Shown here in pieces: positions 1 to 9,000 of a stretch of DNA of 33,949 nt. The position numbers were made by a program. The stretch comes from Pseudothermotoga sp. (GTDB lineage Bacteria; Thermotogota; Thermotogae; Thermotogales; DSM-5069): the NCBI GenBank assembly GCA_041640575.1, contig JBEPZZ010000016.1, positions 1 to 33,949 on the forward strand, in the 5' to 3' direction. Positions within the stretch are counted from its first letter, which is position 1. Each line of letters begins with the position of its first letter.

Positions 1-3000
1 CTTTTCTGGTCTTACAAATCAGTAAATCACTGTCCCATGGGTGCAGCAGCGATAACAACTACAGGATTTGGGATAGACAGAGAAATGGTTGCAGAATATC
101 TTGGTTTTGAAAGACCACTTCAGAACTCCTATCGTGCGATAGTAACGCACAATTGGTTATTCTTTCCTTCAATTTCAATTCAGGCAATTCTTCTTACCTT
201 GTCAAGATTACTTGCAGATCTGTCTCACAAGAGCTCTTCTGAGGTTGGCATAATAGATTTTCCAGACGATCTTATTCAGATCAGCAGTATAATGCCTCAG
301 AAAAGAAATCCAGTTATACTTGAACACGCCAGAATACGAGTTAATAAATCGCTTGAGCTCTTAAATTCTGTTGCAAGAATTTTCAGTAATATTCCGTATC
401 AAGACGTGAACGAAATAGGTGACGAAATCTTGTTCACTTTTCTTGGTACTATGGAAACAGTTCATGAAGCTATAGAACTTTTCAAAGAGATCGTAAGGAA
501 AATGAGGATCAATGTCAGTAGGGTGAAACAAATTGCATTGAAAATGGGAGCGACAACCACTGAACTGGCTGATGAACTTGTACGAAAGTATGAGATAGAT
601 TTCCGAACAAGTCATCGAAAAGTCTCAGACTGTGTAAAAAAAGGCATGGATTATGAAGTTTTTATACAACTTCTTTCAGAAACTTTTGGAGAAAAGTCAT
701 CAATGAGTAAGGAAGAGTTCTTCGATATTCTTTCGGTGGAACATTTTGTGAAAGTTCGCAGAACCTACGGTGGTCCTAGCAAGCAAACTATGAAAGAGGC
801 CTTAAAAAATTACAGAAAGAACTTGTTGGCTGCTAAAAGAAAGATCAAAGGTTTTCAGGAAAAACTTCTAGAAAGCAAGGCAAAACTTGACAATGAATTC
901 CAACAAATGTTATACACATAAAGTACAAAGAGAACTACTAAAAAAGCACACTCAGCGAAATCAAAAATTGTGCTGTAAAGTAAGTGGCAAGCACAATTAC
1001 ATGTCTTGCTGGTAGTGCCCTAACAAATTTGTCGTATGCCAAATAAAAATCAGATAAAACAAACAATCCTGCACCAATCGGCAAAAGTATTTTGAAATAA
1101 TCAGCTTGCGTATAAAATGGTCCAAATGAAAAAGCAAGCATTGTTGCTATAGCAAAAACATAGCCTCCAACACCTAAACGAAGACTACCAAGATTTTTAT
1201 ACAAAAACAGTATGTACAAGGTACCCAGAAAAATATAAATTATCGAGAAAACCCAAAACTTAGGAATCGCAAAACTCAAAGCAAAGCCTAAGGAATAGAA
1301 TACATGCCCAACCAAAAAGGATAGCATCCCAAAAACGAAAGTCTTAGAATTTTCGAGAAAAATATCACCAAAGACTCCGCAAATTAATCCAGCAACTATA
1401 AGCCATTCATAACCATTGGCATTCAGCGCAGCCAGCACAACTGCGCAAGTAGTAGTTAATGCTTTGTAAAACACAGCGGGCTTTTCCTTACTCTTTAGAC
1501 TGATAGTTATCCAACCAAATACAGTCATCAAAAGTGCAGTTGGAAAGATCAAAAACATTTTAGAACCCCCCAGATAAATCTTTCATATTACGCCTTTGAC
1601 GCCATTATTTCGAAGAAGTTTTTCAGAAAGTACGATAGAACACCAGCTGCAACTGGTACTTGTGTCCAACCGGCGACGACTTTATAAACAATCCTCGGGT
1701 TATTCAAACGTTCACCTCTAGCAAACCCAGCACCAATCACACTTCCAACAATTGCCTGAGTAGCTGCAACTGGTATGCCAACTAAGCTGAAGATCCACAC
1801 GGTAACTGATTGTGCAAGCACCGCGATGACGGACGAAAAATGATCCAACCTTACCAAGTCTCTGCCCACAGTGATCATAACTCGACTGCTGAAAGTCAGA
1901 ATCCCAAGTGCAATGCTTAGACCGCCTATCAGAGCAGCTTGTCGAATGCTCAACAGATTACCAACGAAAACTCCTGTGACATTCGCTACATTGTTAGCTC
2001 CAAGGGAATAAACTCCATAGATACCTGCGACCCATCCAAGAGTTCGTATGATGAAATCTTGATACTGTACCCTTCGAAATTTCTTCAAAATATGTGACAA
2101 AAGAAAATACAACAGAAAACTAATGAACATCGCAGTGAACGGCGTCAAAATCCAAGCAGTAAAGAATTTTACAAGATCAGACCATTCGAAACCAGTGATT
2201 CCTCGGCTTTTAGCGCCGATCCCAATTATTGCACCGATTATCGCTTGTGAAGCAGAAGCTGGCAGTTTCAACCAAGTCATTGTCGTAACAACAAAAGCTG
2301 CCGACAGCAATGCACAAGAAGCATCCATCACTGAGAACTTGGCGAGTGAACCTATATTTCTCAATCCTGGCGCACCGCCAAGGACTGCTCCCAAAACTAC
2401 GAAGATGGCACCGATTATAATTGCTTTTCGATGACTCATCAATCCGCTACCAACAGATGGCCCAAAACTGGCACAAGAAGCATTAGCTCCCAGCGACCAT
2501 CCGAAGAAAACTGCCGGTAACAAATACAGCAGAATCAATTGTTACCACCTCAGTTCAATTAATTGATGTATAACGTATTTTACATCAAACGAGTATGAAA
2601 GTTGCAAGACTTTCTCTAGAACAGCAGAAATTCCATTCGATTGTTTGTACTCGTAACGGTTGTTAACATAAAAATTCTAGGTTTATGCTACAATGTTGTT
2701 GGCGATGGAGTCCGCCATATAATTGCCGCACGGCTGATGACTCCTACCCATTGGGGTAGGAGTTTTTTATTGAGGAGTGATGGCTCTGCAAGCTAAAAGC
2801 ATTGTTGAGTCCAAGATCCTGGATTGGCTTGAGATGAAAGAACCGGTTTGTCCAATATGCGGCATAATTAACGACGGTGTTGAGAAGTTTTTTGACAGCA
2901 TATTCTACGAACTTGTGAATGACCCTAAGGTAAGAAGTCAATTACGAGGTGGAATATGCGTCAAACATGCTGACCATATGCTTGATTTTCTTTCGAGACA

Positions 3001-6000: not shown

Positions 6001-9000
6001 TTCATTGTTTTTTGCCACGGTAATATTGTGCTGGTATATCTCGAAAATGAAGAGAATAAAGCTAGGGAGATTGGCCCAATACTTATTGGTTGTATTGACT
6101 GTATCAATATTGGTTTCGAGATTAGATGTGTATCCACTGAAAACTCTTTTGACTCGGTTGCAACCATTTGAACAGACCTCTCGTCAAGAAATACAAATCG
6201 AGGAACAAATTTCAATCGGCACGAAAGCTTCGCGCCAATTCAGCACAGAAACAAGGCCTAATTGGTTGAACAAGCTTGTTGAGAAAATATGGATCCCACT
6301 GACTTTGCTCCTTTTTGGTGTATTTCTTTTCACCTTTGCCATTACAAACTTCGGTATAAAAGGTACATTGAGATTGCTCTTGCTAGGGGCTTTGTTCTTT
6401 ATAGCTTTCACTACTGTAGCTTCTATGATCTTTCGTTCAATTAAGCCAGGTTATGAACTGTTTCCACCGGAACAATCTTATGAGGTCAGATTAGAAGCTC
6501 AGCAAGGTGTTGAACAAGTAATGGTCAAGGAACAAAAAATCACCACTGAAGAATCATTCGAAACCGTTAGCTACAACTTGACGTTAATCCTTGATTTGCT
6601 AACTCTGAGCCTTTTGGTATTCATGACCATCTTGGTTGTGAATTATGTTCTAAAAAGCCGTCTGAAACTTGAGAATGAAAAAACCACAGCAAGGGGAGAA
6701 CAAATTCCACAAGATGTCGAACTGTATCCATTGGATAAGATTCCAGAATTTGTTCAAACCGAGGATTTTATAAAATCCGCATACTGGTGGTTAAGAAGAA
6801 AATACTTTCCAACTTTGCACCATTTGACGCCGCGCGAACTGATTGATTCAACTAATCTTCAAATCAAATCTTTTGAGGATTTAACATTGATCTACGAGAA
6901 AGTCAGATATGCTGGAAAAGGGATTGAAAAAGAAGAATTGGAAAAGTTTTACCAGGATCTACTCGAAACAGTTGCAGGAATCGAAAAAACAAGATTTAGT
7001 GAAGCTGATAAAGAAAAATCACAGGGGGTTTAAAACCCCCTGTAGTCATTCACGGACATACCTCTGCTGCGAATCGTAATTTTCTATAACACCGCCCAGC
7101 ACCTGTTGTATATACTCAACAACTGCATAGTCCATGGCAAAGCCTGTGTCATATCCTTTCAACCCTTTAAACATCGTATACCCATCTCCACCGCCTGCCA
7201 TGTAATCATTTGTGACAACTCTGTATGTCTTTGTTAGATCAATAGGTTGTCCTTTAATTCTAACGTCGGTGACTTTACCACCAACAGCCTTAAAAACAAT
7301 TCCAGAAACTTGCGGCCATGCACCTTGTCCAGGTTGTACTGTCGCAGCATATTCGAGGACTTTTAGGAGTTGTTCTCCAGTCATTTCAAGAACATACAAT
7401 CTGTTGCCGAACGGAAGAACAGTAAGGATATCCCTTATTGTGATCTTTCCAGCCTTTATTGACGCTCTGATACCACCACCATTTGTTATGGCTACATCAG
7501 CTCCGGCCTTCCACGCCATTGCATCGGCGATAAGATTTGCAAGATTTGTAGACTTCGATCTAACGTTTGCCCTTTCCCCGTCAAGCAAAATCTTAGTTTC
7601 ACCGATGACAGTATCGAGCTTTTCTGAGCCAAGAGCTTTGAAATAATCTAGGACTGTTTTTACATAAAAATGCTCTTGATAGGGTTTGCCAACGAATTCA
7701 TATATATCCTTTCCTTCCGCGTCTTTACCTTTGTGAATCTTCAAATTAACGGGTATTGGTCTCCAGTTCCAGGAAATTATCTTTCCATTTTCAATTTCAA
7801 GGTCCAATCTTCCAACGACCTTACCCCATTCCCATGCTTGAGCCAATATCACACCATTAACAATCTCAGCTTGCTCCATTCTTGTATGACTATGGCCATC
7901 AATTATGACGTCGATTCCGGCAACGTTCTTTGCAAGTTGTCTACTAGTTGTCTTACCTGGACCTTCGGGTTCAACTCCAAGATGTGTCAGTGCTATCACG
8001 ATATCAGCTTGTTTGCGAAGTTCTGGAACCAGCGATTTACTTACCTCAATCGCATTTGAGAAAGTTGCACCAGCTAGGTGAAGAGGTTCGAGCACAGCCG
8101 TTTCCTCAGTTATCAAACCGAAGATTGCAACTTTCAAGTTTGGAAATTCCTTTATAATGTAAGCTTTTGGTTTAACTATCCCTTCTGGATCACTGAAATT
8201 TGCACAAAGGAATGGGAAGTTTGCAAGTTTCATTTGCTTTGCAAGAACCGTTTTTGGATTATCGAATTCATGGTTTCCCAAGACCACAGCATCCAGCTTC
8301 ATCATGTTAAGTGAAACAATATCTGGAGCAGCATCAAGCTGATCAGATTCCGGTACACCAGTGTTAAAGTCTCCAGCATGCAAAAAGAGAACATAACCAC
8401 CCTGCGCCTCAACTTCTTTGCGTACTTCCTCAACAATCGTCGCAATTGCTGCAAATCCACCTATGTTTGGGTTGTTGGTCTCGTTAAATGGCCAGGCTCT
8501 ACCGTGTGTGTCGTTGATGTGAAGAATAGTGAGTTTTGCAGAGAAGGTAAGAACCACAAGGATGAGTAACAACAAGATTAACAATCTTTTCATTCAATCA
8601 CCTCCAGGAAAATTATAGTTCAAACGGTATCAAAAAGATGTTCGAAATTCATATAAAAACTTAAAACTTTTCAGTAACCTTTGAATTCTATAAACCATAT
8701 ACCAAAGTAAGGTTTTCAGAGATTCGTTTACAGCTTATATTATTATTATTATGTTACGTTTGGATGCTTTAAGTTAACTTTCCTGAAATTACAGCAAATA
8801 TTTGAAAGTTTTTCATTGCTTAAAAATAAAATGATAGAATTTAGATAGGAGGTGAGAAAATGCCTTTATCTAATCACATTCAAAGTGCTGATTGGAAAGC
8901 GGAAAAGCACGTTCCAGTGATCGAATGCGCCGATACCGTAAAGGCAAACGAATGGTTTGAAGTAAAAGTTTCGGTTGGTAAAGAGATACCTCATCCAAAC

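What a model noticed while it worked through the whole genome (the two positions that open the first line are those of the whole stretch)
2692..7033. Fluoride riboswitch drives a DUF6062 zinc-protein/MoxR/DUF58 operon in a genome with no fluoride exporter
The genome's only fluoride riboswitch (C16:2692-2753, followed by a terminator hairpin and U-run) does not precede crcB or eriC-F, neither of which is found in the assembly, but g00783, a 232-aa all-helical protein with four invariant CxxC/CxxH pairs (distant DUF6062), co-transcribed with a MoxR AAA+ ATPase (g00784), a DUF58 protein (g00785) and an 8-TM protein (g00786). The riboswitch-g00783 pairing recurs in unrelated phyla, where the gene stands alone, so this uncharacterised zinc-protein family is a previously unlisted member of the fluoride regulon; in the Pseudothermotoga family, which lacks CrcB, it is joined to a MoxR module and is the only fluoride-switched system.
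Evidence so far: rna.tsv: one RF01734 hit (52 bits). No CRCB (PF02537, call 58) and no Voltage_CLC (PF00654, call 71) in six-frame searches of G000. 58 Thermotogales genomes: riboswitch in 15/17 other genomes of the family but CRCB in 2/17 (one below cut-off); sister family CRCB 21/24, riboswitch 3/24. tblastn on the 28 riboswitch loci: in 14 of the 15 family genomes and 1 genome of another family a g00783 homologue (30-46% id) directly follows the riboswitch and is followed by MoxR (61-86% id); in the 15th MoxR follows directly; 7 of 7 other riboswitch loci tested precede a MutS2-like gene. Outside the order: of 20 loci with g00783 relatives tested (of 33 found, call 170) 9 carry a fluoride riboswitch above [...]
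(Added by a program. Inside this text positions count along the whole contig: contig position 1 is position 1 of the stretch shown here. "Call 12" and the like, gene names such as g00115 and contig names such as C1 are that model's own, and its searches are not shown. The text may have been shortened before it was handed on; [...] marks where a part breaks off. The agent that wrote the report below was given it as the finding of a first reader that could run no searches.)

Follow-up and report, generated by a model that had tools for sequence, protein, structure and literature searches.

The report
Fluoride-switched zinc-protein and MoxR operon
A fluoride-sensing RNA switch in this heat-loving bacterium turns on an uncharacterised cysteine-rich protein and a membrane-bound chaperone-type ATPase instead of a fluoride exporter, and the same protein family turns up behind fluoride switches in many unrelated bacteria that also lack the known exporters.

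Summary
Window 2692-2753 is a full-length fluoride riboswitch (52.3 bits, cut-off 34). Its terminator overlaps the aptamer. A gap-free four-gene operon follows: DUF6062 (double Cys3His, soluble, all-helical), a MoxR AAA+ ATPase, DUF58, and a polytopic membrane protein.

The genome, and a closed genome of the same genus, have no CrcB and no CLC. The CLCs elsewhere in the family carry chloride-type filter motifs.

- DUF6062 lies behind a fluoride riboswitch in 15 of 35 loci outside the family. All 15 switches are upstream on the same strand.
- Those operons also hold known fluoride-regulon genes: Na+/H+ exchanger, Usp and an FHL/Mrp-like complex. Riboswitch-less loci place DUF6062 next to CrcB or enolase.
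- The riboswitch-DUF6062-MoxR-DUF58 linkage is not confined to this family. It recurs in three other Thermotogota families, once with a different gene order, and divergently in a Chloroflexi genome.
- DUF6062 genomes are depleted of CrcB: 8 of 76 against 41 of 75 in the phylum, and 5 of 32 outside the family. This is not significant at family level.

The protein's function is inferred only. I found no paper on it, and Baker 2012 was not readable. Earlier notes of this scan report the same DUF6062-fluoride link on other DNA.

The parts
2686..2694 (+). Possible extended -10 promoter element (TGnTAcAAT-like), read by eye
   Evidence: Read from the sequence. The sigma-70 scan lists no + strand promoter here, so this is inference only.
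2692..2753 (+). Fluoride riboswitch aptamer (RF01734)
   Evidence: 52.3 bits, gathering score 34, model 1-64 of 64; the only hit in the genome.
2739..2770 (+). Intrinsic terminator (11-bp stem, 4-nt loop, T6) whose 5' arm overlaps the aptamer 3' end; an ON-switch expression platform
   Evidence: The same design is seen in 17 of 17 family and G043 riboswitches, with compensatory stem changes.
2777..3478 (+). g00783: DUF6062 protein, 233 aa (232 aa from the ATG at 2780), soluble, all-helical, two CxxC...CxxH modules (C25/C28/C61/H64 and C108/C111/C146/H149)
   Evidence: PF19538, 54.1 bits; invariant residues; AF2 pLDDT 80.9, pTM 0.75; no TM segment.
3438..4385 (+). g00784: MoxR-type AAA+ ATPase
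   Evidence: AAA_3 210 bits, AAA_lid_2 85 bits. GVGKT and DE motifs are invariant. Relatives are 66-85% identical.
4375..5655 (+). g00785: DUF58 protein with an N-terminal membrane anchor
   Evidence: PF01882, 25.5 bits, cut-off 23.4; TM about residues 26-44; conserved in 14 genomes.
5636..7033 (+). g00786: polytopic membrane protein (about 8 TM) with a cytosolic C-terminal DUF4129-like region
   Evidence: DUF4129, 19.3 bits, below cut-off; hydropathy; conserved as fourth gene of the operon.
7020..7044 (-). Terminator-like hairpin of the convergent 5'-nucleotidase gene (7046-8593, -); marks the 3' boundary of the operon

Best explanation
This is a fluoride-inducible operon. When fluoride is low, the terminator at 2739-2770 forms and transcription stops. 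When fluoride (bound with Mg2+) holds the aptamer pseudoknot, the 5' arm of the terminator is kept in the aptamer and RNA polymerase reads into four co-transcribed genes.

The products are a soluble double Cys3His metal-binding protein (DUF6062) and a membrane-anchored MoxR AAA+ / DUF58 / polytopic-membrane-protein module.

I propose that DUF6062 is a general, exporter-independent fluoride-stress protein. I further propose that in this lineage it works with the MoxR module, either as its adaptor or as its client. The module would use ATP to remodel or re-metallate proteins or membrane complexes poisoned by fluoride or metal-fluoride adducts, as other MoxR/vWA pairs release inhibitors from or insert metals into their clients.

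Shown: the riboswitch, the terminator design, the gene order, their conservation, and the recurrent linkage of DUF6062 to fluoride switches and fluoride-regulon genes. Inferred: induction by fluoride in vivo, co-transcription, metal binding, any DUF6062-MoxR contact, and the biochemical role.
For: The riboswitch and its overlapping terminator are established. The platform is conserved with compensatory changes in 17 of 17 relatives.

The four genes overlap or abut. All four genes are found in 14 of 16 family loci examined; in a 15th, L029 of G001, the three-gene MoxR module follows the riboswitch without DUF6062. In G001 the riboswitch directly precedes MoxR without DUF6062, so the switch-MoxR link is kept on its own.

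The same riboswitch-DUF6062-MoxR-DUF58-TM operon is present in G043 (f3) and in G137 and G140 (f9). In G094 (f6) the order is riboswitch (28.5 bits, below cut-off)-MoxR-DUF58-X-DUF6062. In a Chloroflexi genome two divergent riboswitch variants (22.5 and 19.3 bits, with linker insertions and a compensated pseudoknot) face DUF6062 x2 on one side and MoxR-DUF58 on the other. In two Dictyoglomota genomes a MoxR-DUF58-TgpA operon converges on DUF6062.

DUF6062 lies behind RF01734 in 15 of 35 loci outside the family. All 15 are upstream on the same strand, and none is downstream or on the other strand. In the phylum outside f1 the figure is 16 of 59 DUF6062 genomes, 4 of them with hits below cut-off.

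Its operon partners are established fluoride-regulon genes. Behind a riboswitch these are Na+/H+ exchanger plus Usp (L071), Usp (L082) and an FHL/Mrp-like complex (L105, L106). In loci with no RF01734 hit, DUF6062 lies next to CrcB (L062, L074) or enolase (L059, L069). The regulon membership of these genes comes from passages of PMC2864571 and PMC11139923.

The phyletic pattern is complementary to CrcB. In Thermotogota, CrcB is found in 8 of 76 DUF6062 genomes against 41 of 75 without DUF6062 (odds ratio 0.10). In family f10 the two are mutually exclusive at genus level. Of 32 DUF6062 genomes outside the family, 23 have neither CrcB nor CLC over cut-off, against 11 and 12 of 14 control genomes.
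Against: There is no experiment and no expression data.

DUF6062 decays while the MoxR module stays intact. It is frameshifted in G002 (same genus, closed genome), has in-frame stops in G006 and is absent in G001. It evolves fast (31-57% identity among 13 family homologues; MoxR 66-85%).

G003 and G006 keep the operon without a riboswitch. Most DUF6062 genes are not riboswitch-linked: 20 of 35 loci outside the family and 43 of 59 in the rest of the phylum. Some sit in unrelated contexts, such as the lysine-synthesis operon in L048 and NMO in five Bacillota loci.

The CrcB anti-correlation is not phylogenetically corrected. At family level (11 families) Spearman rho is -0.41 with p 0.21. Completeness of the MAGs outside the phylum is not given. 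Eight genomes have both genes, including G137 and G140, which carry the full operon.

The fold gives no functional hint: Foldseek has no hit at E<=0.001, and the best VIA-align Z of 5.6 is within noise for helical proteins.
Confidence: 0.6

Rival explanations
1. An unrecognised fluoride exporter does the real work and DUF6062/MoxR is only an accessory. Candidates are the uncharacterised MFS subfamily that follows DUF6062 in several riboswitch operons and has a 45%-identical copy in this genome (G000 C12:41596-42789), or the polytopic g00786 itself.
For: The MFS genes that lie downstream of DUF6062 on the same strand in L060 (Clostridia) and L083 (Rubrobacterales) are 47% identical to each other and 45% identical to the G000 copy. 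Those in L063 and L080 are 43% identical to each other. L110 also has DUF6062 followed by an MFS. An earlier scan note, e1-3585471, reports a DUF6062/MFS/DUF190 operon behind a fluoride switch.
Against: The G000 MFS lies next to mutL with no riboswitch, and the genome has only one. MFS genes are common, so 7 of 35 loci with one nearby is not clearly enriched. g00786 looks like the TgpA/DUF4129-type partner usual in MoxR operons, not a transporter family. No MFS is known to carry fluoride (recalled).
Confidence: 0.2
2. DUF6062 is a regulatory or sensor protein, for example a metal- or redox-dependent switch. Once induced by the riboswitch, it would extend the fluoride response to other genes. 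The MoxR module would then be merely a neighbour sharing its promoter.
For: It is small and soluble, has two structural-looking Cys3His sites and stands alone behind the switch in many genomes (L052, L054, L055, L058, L061, L064). It evolves fast.
Against: No DNA-binding or known signalling domain was found by Pfam, NCBIfam or fold searches. Linkage to MoxR-DUF58 persists through three different gene arrangements, which argues for a functional tie rather than promoter sharing.
Confidence: 0.1
3. The operon is a general envelope or stress MoxR module. Its fluoride control is a lineage quirk of little physiological weight, and these organisms simply tolerate fluoride or rarely meet it.
For: MoxR-DUF58-TgpA-type modules are widespread without riboswitches; AAA_3 rings in 13 of 14 control genomes. 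G003 and G006 lost the switch, and G042 shows a decayed remnant behind an intact switch.
Against: The switch is kept, with compensatory changes in its terminator, in 16 of 18 family genomes. The link between switch and module was rebuilt or kept in four further lineages.
Confidence: 0.08
4. crcB or eriC-F exists but lies on an unassembled piece of this 93.7%-complete genome.
For: The assembly has 123 contigs and 93.72% completeness.
Against: Single-contig, 99%-complete genomes G002 (same genus), G003, G004, G010 and G011 lack CRCB. G002 also lacks any CLC. The CLCs of the others carry Cl-type GSGIP/G(R/T)EGP motifs, not GREGT/V or GEVTP (motif table in PMC5100911).
Confidence: 0.02

Closest known systems
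Canonical fluoride-riboswitch operons (crcB/Fluc, eriC-F/CLC-F; also Na+/H+ antiporters, enolase, pyrophosphatase, formate hydrogen lyase, MutS-related, Usp)
   Same: It has the same aptamer class (RF01734) and the same terminator-type ON platform. DUF6062 shares operons with Na+/H+ exchanger, Usp and FHL-like genes behind the switch, and lies next to CrcB or enolase in loci where no switch was found. The gene lists are from passages of PMC2864571 and PMC11139923. Baker 2012 itself is recalled only.
   Different: No exporter is in the operon or in the genome. The regulated genes are an uncharacterised Cys3His protein and a MoxR AAA+ module, neither of which is named in the passages or listings I could read.
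MoxR AAA+ / vWA(DUF58) chaperone pairs, such as the CbbQ-CbbO rubisco activase (abstract in the listing of PMC4660213); RavA-ViaA, NorQ-NorD and MoxR-DUF58-TgpA operons (recalled)
   Same: It has AAA_3 plus AAA_lid_2 architecture with invariant Walker motifs, followed by a DUF58 gene and a membrane protein with a DUF4129-like tail. The Dictyoglomota relatives have a true TgpA at that position.
   Different: It is under a fluoride riboswitch and is preceded by DUF6062. The fourth gene has no Pfam transglutaminase-core hit. The client is unknown.
Pfam DUF6062 (PF19538)
   Same: g00783 scores 54.1 bits against a cut-off of 27 and has the family's two CxxC...CxxH modules. ESM Atlas nearest clusters are DUF6062.
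   Different: The family has no described function. I found 0 papers with the name. The fluoride link is new information about the family.
Riboswitch-MutS-related operon of other Thermotogales
   Same: It is the alternative target of the same riboswitch class in the same order: 8 of 11 riboswitch loci outside the family, and the second switch of G002.
   Different: The effector genes are unrelated. The small leader ORF shows no similarity to DUF6062 (hhalign probability 1.6%).

Membership tests
Fluoride riboswitch (Rfam RF01734) | Covariance-model score above the curated gathering score over the full model | tested here: met
   52.3 bits against 34, model 1-64 of 64.
Fluoride riboswitch (Rfam RF01734) | Expression platform: intrinsic terminator competing with the aptamer 3' strand | tested here: met
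   Stem 2739-2764 plus T6 shares ACUCCUAC with the aptamer. Conserved in 17 of 17 relatives, with compensatory changes.
Fluoride riboswitch (Rfam RF01734) | Fluoride-dependent folding and read-through | not testable with these tools
   Needs in-line probing or in vitro transcription with NaF.
DUF6062 (PF19538) | Pfam score above the gathering cut-off | tested here: met
   54.1 bits against 27.
DUF6062 (PF19538) | Two CxxC...CxxH modules | tested here: met
   C25, C28, C61, H64, C108, C146 and H149 are invariant and C111 is at least 90% conserved in 67 diverse members. The N-terminal module also matches profile positions 112-173, which indicates an internal repeat.
DUF6062 (PF19538) | Metal (Zn or Fe-S) binding | not testable with these tools
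   Inferred from the Cys3His pattern only.
MoxR subfamily of AAA+ ATPases | AAA_3 core plus AAA_lid_2, with Walker A and B motifs | tested here: met
   210 and 85 bits. G46-V47-G48-K49-T50 and D106-E107 are invariant in 14 sequences.
DUF58 (vWA-like MoxR partner) | Pfam PF01882 above cut-off, encoded directly after MoxR | tested here: met
   25.5 bits against 23.4, which is marginal. The position is conserved.
TgpA/DUF4129-type membrane partner | DUF4129 or transglutaminase core above cut-off | tested here: inconclusive
   DUF4129 scores 19.3 bits against 24.8, and there is no Transglut_core hit.
CrcB/Fluc exporter in this genome | A PF02537 match anywhere in G000 | tested here: not met
   0 matches at E<=10. 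The assembly is 93.72% complete. The closed genome G002 of the same genus also has none.
CLC-F (EriC-F) exporter in this genome | A PF00654 match with F-type filter motifs (GNNLI or GMxLI, GREGT/V, GEVTP; PMC5100911 Table 1) | tested here: not met
   No PF00654 match in G000 or G002. None of 40 loci taken from CLC searches in relatives and other DUF6062 genomes has an F-type motif in a CLC frame.

The most novel reading that the evidence does not exclude
DUF6062, alone or with the membrane-bound MoxR-DUF58 module, is the effector of an exporter-independent way of surviving fluoride. It would functionally replace CrcB/Fluc and CLC-F in many anaerobic and thermophilic lineages, such as most Thermotogota families, Aerophobota, some Clostridia, Dictyoglomota and Atribacterota. 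It could do so by repairing or re-metallating fluoride-poisoned metalloproteins or by sequestering fluoride at its metal sites.
Probability: 0.25. Interest if true: 0.9.

Novelty: new variant of a known kind. Interest (0 to 1): 0.72.

Why it matters
Only two exporter families (Fluc/CrcB and CLC-F) are established as fluoride resistance determinants in prokaryotes. How organisms without them cope is an open question. Here a validated fluoride sensor points at a widespread protein family with no known function: 2299 cluster representatives at E<=0.001, and half of all Thermotogota genomes. It also points at a MoxR AAA+ module whose clients are unknown. Both occur preferentially in genomes without the exporters. 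This gives MoxR/DUF58 systems a defined inducing stress. It gives DUF6062 a testable role. It also offers cheap experiments: NaF induction, complementation of an exporter-less laboratory strain, and metal analysis.

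Tried and rejected
Structure: the AF2 model is good (pLDDT 80.9). Foldseek against the PDB gave no hit at E<=0.001. 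VIA-align wide gave a best Z of 5.6, which is in the noise range for helical proteins. No fold assignment was made.

NCBIfam has no model for g00783, g00785 or g00786. The ESM Atlas only re-found DUF6062.

The search for homologous proteins found only 2 proteins. The exhaustive representative search was needed.

The family alignment A1 was used instead, so the 35 outside loci are biased towards relatives that share its motifs.

The small ORF in front of the MutS-like genes is not related to DUF6062.

No sub-threshold riboswitch was found in L059, L062, L069, L074, L056, L053, L051, L066, L070 or L072 at E<=1.

Expression: no RNA holder was listed for window 2500-7100.

Complex prediction (MoxR + DUF58 + DUF6062) was never accepted because its queue was full. 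There is therefore no result of any kind on binding.

Literature: Baker 2012, Ren 2012, Stockbridge 2012 and McIlwain 2021 are not held. The supplements of Weinberg 2010 held no gene list that I could search for MoxR, COG0714 or DUF58.

The idea that the family's CLCs are CLC-F was rejected on filter motifs.

Full report
THE OBSERVATION. Rfam finds one family in the window: the fluoride riboswitch at 2692-2753 (+), at 52.3 bits against a gathering score of 34, covering the whole model. It is also the only copy in the 1.97-Mb, 123-contig assembly. An 11-bp GC-rich hairpin at 2739-2764 and a T6 run follow directly. The 5' arm of that hairpin is the conserved ACUCCUAC of the aptamer's 3' strand. 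This is the usual design of a transcriptional ON switch.

Four + strand ORFs follow without gaps: 2777-3478, 3438-4385, 4375-5655 and 5636-7033. Pfam names them as follows:
- DUF6062, 54.1 bits against a cut-off of 27.
- AAA_3 plus AAA_lid_2, which is MoxR.
- DUF58, 25.5 bits against 23.4.
- A weak DUF4129 tail, 19.3 bits, below cut-off.

Hydropathy shows no TM segment in DUF6062 or MoxR. It shows an N-terminal anchor in DUF58 and about eight TM segments in the fourth protein. The flanks are a divergent PHO4 phosphate transporter and a convergent 5'-nucleotidase.

NO KNOWN EXPORTER. Six-frame searches find no CRCB and no Voltage_CLC in G000 (completeness 93.72%).
- In the family of 18 genomes, CRCB is found in 2, one of them below cut-off. 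It is absent from five single-contig genomes, including G002 of the same genus.
It is present in 9 of 18 family genomes, but not in G000, G002 or G001.
- Those CLCs carry GSGIP and G(R/T)EGP with GGxFxP, the chloride-type filter. F-type CLCs carry GNNLI or GMxLI, GREGT/V and GEVTP (Table 1 of PMC5100911, passage read).
- None of 40 loci taken from CLC searches in the phylum and the outside genomes has an F-type motif in a CLC frame.

THE OPERON IN THE FAMILY. The riboswitch is present in 16 of 18 genomes. A DUF6062 homologue is found in 17 of 18. The MoxR-DUF58-TM module is found in 15 of the 16 loci examined. The sixteenth is the second riboswitch of G002, which precedes MutS_V genes.

All 17 riboswitches examined (16 from the family plus G043) have the overlapping terminator, with compensatory stem changes in G001, G013 and G043.

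MoxR is 66-85% identical across the set. DUF6062 is 31-57% identical. DUF6062 is dispensable in some lineages:
- It is absent in G001, where the switch directly precedes MoxR.
- It is frameshifted in G002.
- It carries stop codons in G006.

G003 and G006 lack the switch. G042 (f3) keeps the switch in front of a deleted remnant of the operon.

BEYOND THE FAMILY. The counts for the order were reproduced. Of 11 riboswitch loci outside the family, 8 precede a small ORF plus MutS-like genes. One, G043, precedes DUF6062-MoxR. One is at a contig end. One is the G042 remnant.

Across the phylum (151 genomes), PF19538 is found in 76 and in none of 14 control genomes. CRCB is found in 49, RF01734 in 80 and CLC in 38.

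Matching coordinates gives the following for the 59 DUF6062 genomes outside f1:
- A riboswitch lies within 1 kb upstream on the same strand in 9 genomes. Six are over cut-off (G043, G137, G140, G180, G181, G182). Three are below cut-off at 23-29 bits (G124, G125, G126).
- A riboswitch lies 6.6 kb upstream on the same strand in six f8 genomes. Two of these were examined. There the switch precedes NADHdh, Proton_antipo_M and Complex1_49kDa/NiFe genes, with DUF6062 as the last gene. This is an FHL/Mrp-like module of the kind long listed in the fluoride regulon (PMC2864571 and PMC11139923 passages).
- In G094 (f6) a 28.5-bit hit precedes MoxR-DUF58, about 1.9 kb of further sequence, then DUF6062.

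G137 and G140 (f9) and G043 (f3) carry the same four-gene operon as the window.

OUTSIDE THE PHYLUM. The family alignment found 44 loci in the species-representative genomes. Thirty-five lie outside the family and come from 32 genomes. Rfam finds RF01734 in 15 of the 35. Every hit is on the strand of DUF6062 and upstream of it, and none is elsewhere in about 186 kb.

The contexts, from Pfam scans, are:
- DUF6062 directly behind the switch in L052, L054, L055, L058, L060, L061, L064 and L080.
- Behind a dynamin-like GTPase in L067 and L078.
- Behind a Na+/H+ exchanger plus Usp in L071.
- Behind a Usp fusion in L082.
- Behind an unknown 271-aa protein in L079 and L083.
- In L050 about 0.9 kb separates the switch from the gene.

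Among the 20 loci without a switch, DUF6062 is followed by CrcB in L062 and L074. It follows enolase in L059 and L069. It faces an H+-pyrophosphatase in four Bacillota loci (L065, L075, L076; not seen in L068 or L081).

In the Chloroflexi locus L063, two tandem DUF6062 genes diverge from MoxR-DUF58. The intergenic region holds two sub-threshold fluoride aptamers, one facing each way (22.5 and 19.3 bits). Both have linker insertions, and the changed loop bases are matched by changed 3' bases of the pseudoknot. In two Dictyoglomota genomes a MoxR-DUF58-TgpA operon converges on DUF6062.

On a maximum-likelihood tree of 47 DUF6062 proteins, the label 'riboswitch-linked' needs at least 5 changes on well-supported branches and 11 on the best tree.

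EXPORTER CENSUS. Among the 32 DUF6062 genomes outside the family, CRCB is over cut-off in 5 and CLC in 6. Twenty-three have neither. Of the 13 with a riboswitch-linked copy, 10 have neither. In the 14 named control genomes CRCB rings in 11 and CLC in 12.

In Thermotogota, CrcB is found in 8 of 76 DUF6062 genomes and in 41 of 75 others. The odds ratio is 0.10 with Fisher p 4e-9. Within f10 the two genes occur in different genera.

Cautions:
- Genomes are not independent. Over 11 families the rank correlation is only -0.41 (p 0.21).
- Completeness of the outside MAGs is not given.
- All 16 f8 genomes have a Cl-type CLC.
- G137 and G140 have both CrcB and the operon.

THE PROTEIN. The exhaustive profile search finds 2299 cluster representatives at E<=0.001 and 1073 at E<=1e-10. 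In 67 diverse members, C25, C28, C61, H64, C108, C146 and H149 are invariant. R53, G59, C111, D188 and Y189 are at least 90% conserved.

The Pfam profile's second module also aligns to the first module of the window protein, so the two CxxC...CxxH units are an internal repeat. AlphaFold2 gives a confident all-helical model (pLDDT 80.9, pTM 0.75). No solved structure resembles it convincingly. I infer two Cys3His metal sites, but Zn against Fe-S cannot be decided here.

HOW IT MOST LIKELY WORKS. The regulatory step (fluoride stabilises the aptamer, the terminator fails, and the operon is read) rests on family membership and conserved architecture. I hold it at about 0.9.

That DUF6062 belongs to the fluoride stress response rests on repeated, oriented linkage and on its operon partners. 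I hold it at about 0.8.

That it acts with the MoxR-DUF58 membrane module rests on linkage kept through three gene arrangements in at least two phyla. I hold it at about 0.5.

The biochemical role is analogy with other MoxR/vWA pairs, such as the CbbQO abstract seen in the listing, and is speculative. That role would be ATP-driven remodelling or re-metallation of fluoride-poisoned targets, with DUF6062 as adaptor, client or metal or fluoride buffer. I hold it at about 0.3.

WHAT IS KNOWN. The library holds no paper with 'DUF6062'. It holds none linking a fluoride riboswitch with MoxR other than an unrelated genome report. It holds none with AAA+ or von Willebrand terms that is relevant, and none joining 'fluoride riboswitch' with Pseudothermotoga.

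The review PMC11139923 (passages) lists exporters, Na+/H+ antiporters, pyrophosphatase, HAD, enolase, formate hydrogen lyase and chorismate mutase. Weinberg 2010 (passages) lists mutS, K+ or Cl- transport and formate hydrogen lyase. Neither names these genes. Baker 2012 and its supplement could not be read, so an unnamed 'hypothetical' entry there cannot be excluded.

After my own analysis I looked up earlier notes of this scan. Seven notes on other genomes report DUF6062 behind fluoride switches, with dynamin-like GTPase, Pup, MFS and DUF190. One reports a Chloroflexota fluoride switch in front of MoxR-DUF58-DUF4129. They agree with what I found. They are unchecked AI notes and not independent evidence.

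VERDICT. It is a new variant of a known kind: a known riboswitch class with a new effector set in exporter-less genomes. Interest is 0.72. The boldest reading not excluded is an exporter-independent fluoride defence, which I hold at about 0.25.

Noticed in passing
G000 C12:41596-42789 (locus L111 3597-4790); L060 971-2149; L083 2668-3879: An uncharacterised MFS_1 subfamily lies downstream of DUF6062 on the same strand in fluoride-riboswitch loci of a Clostridia MAG and a Rubrobacterales MAG (47% identical to each other). It has a 45%-identical copy in the window's genome, next to mutL and without a riboswitch. It is a candidate unrecognised fluoride-related transporter.
   Followed up: partly
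L063 2701-2797 (+) and 2559-2636 (-): Two divergent sub-threshold fluoride aptamers carry hairpin insertions in the P1-P2 linker. The insertion of the + strand copy (2728-2764) matches the CRISPR-DR9 repeat model at 43 bits against a cut-off of 45.
   Followed up: partly
L024 (G002:C1:1596999-1604559), about 6396-6966 (-): In the closed genome of the same genus the DUF6062 gene behind the riboswitch is split over two or three frames (a frameshift), while MoxR, DUF58 and the TM gene are intact.
   Followed up: partly
L088 (G042) 1000-1563 (-): An intact riboswitch and terminator are followed only by short remnants resembling the MoxR N-terminus and the C-terminus of the TM/DUF4129 protein. This looks like an internally deleted operon.
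   Followed up: partly
L031 (G002:C1:488436-495996) 3905-7061 (-): The second fluoride riboswitch of G002 precedes a 116-aa ORF and two MutS_V-domain genes. The same arrangement follows 8 of 11 riboswitches in the sister families. G000 has no second switch.
   Followed up: partly
L105 and L106 (G118, G121; family f8): A fluoride riboswitch heads a 6.6-kb operon of complex-I/Mrp/[NiFe]-hydrogenase-like subunits that ends with DUF6062. These genomes carry 3 riboswitch hits each.
   Followed up: partly
L065, L068, L075, L076, L081 (Bacillota MAGs): DUF6062 follows an NMO-family (nitronate monooxygenase-like) gene. In L065, L075 and L076 it faces a membrane H+-pyrophosphatase. No riboswitch is present. 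In L048 (Fervidobacterium) it sits inside a lysine-biosynthesis gene row.
   Followed up: no
L067 1134-2885 and L078 595-2292: A dynamin-family GTPase is the first gene behind the fluoride riboswitch, followed by DUF6062, in a Thermodesulfobacteriota MAG and a Syntrophaceae MAG.
   Followed up: no
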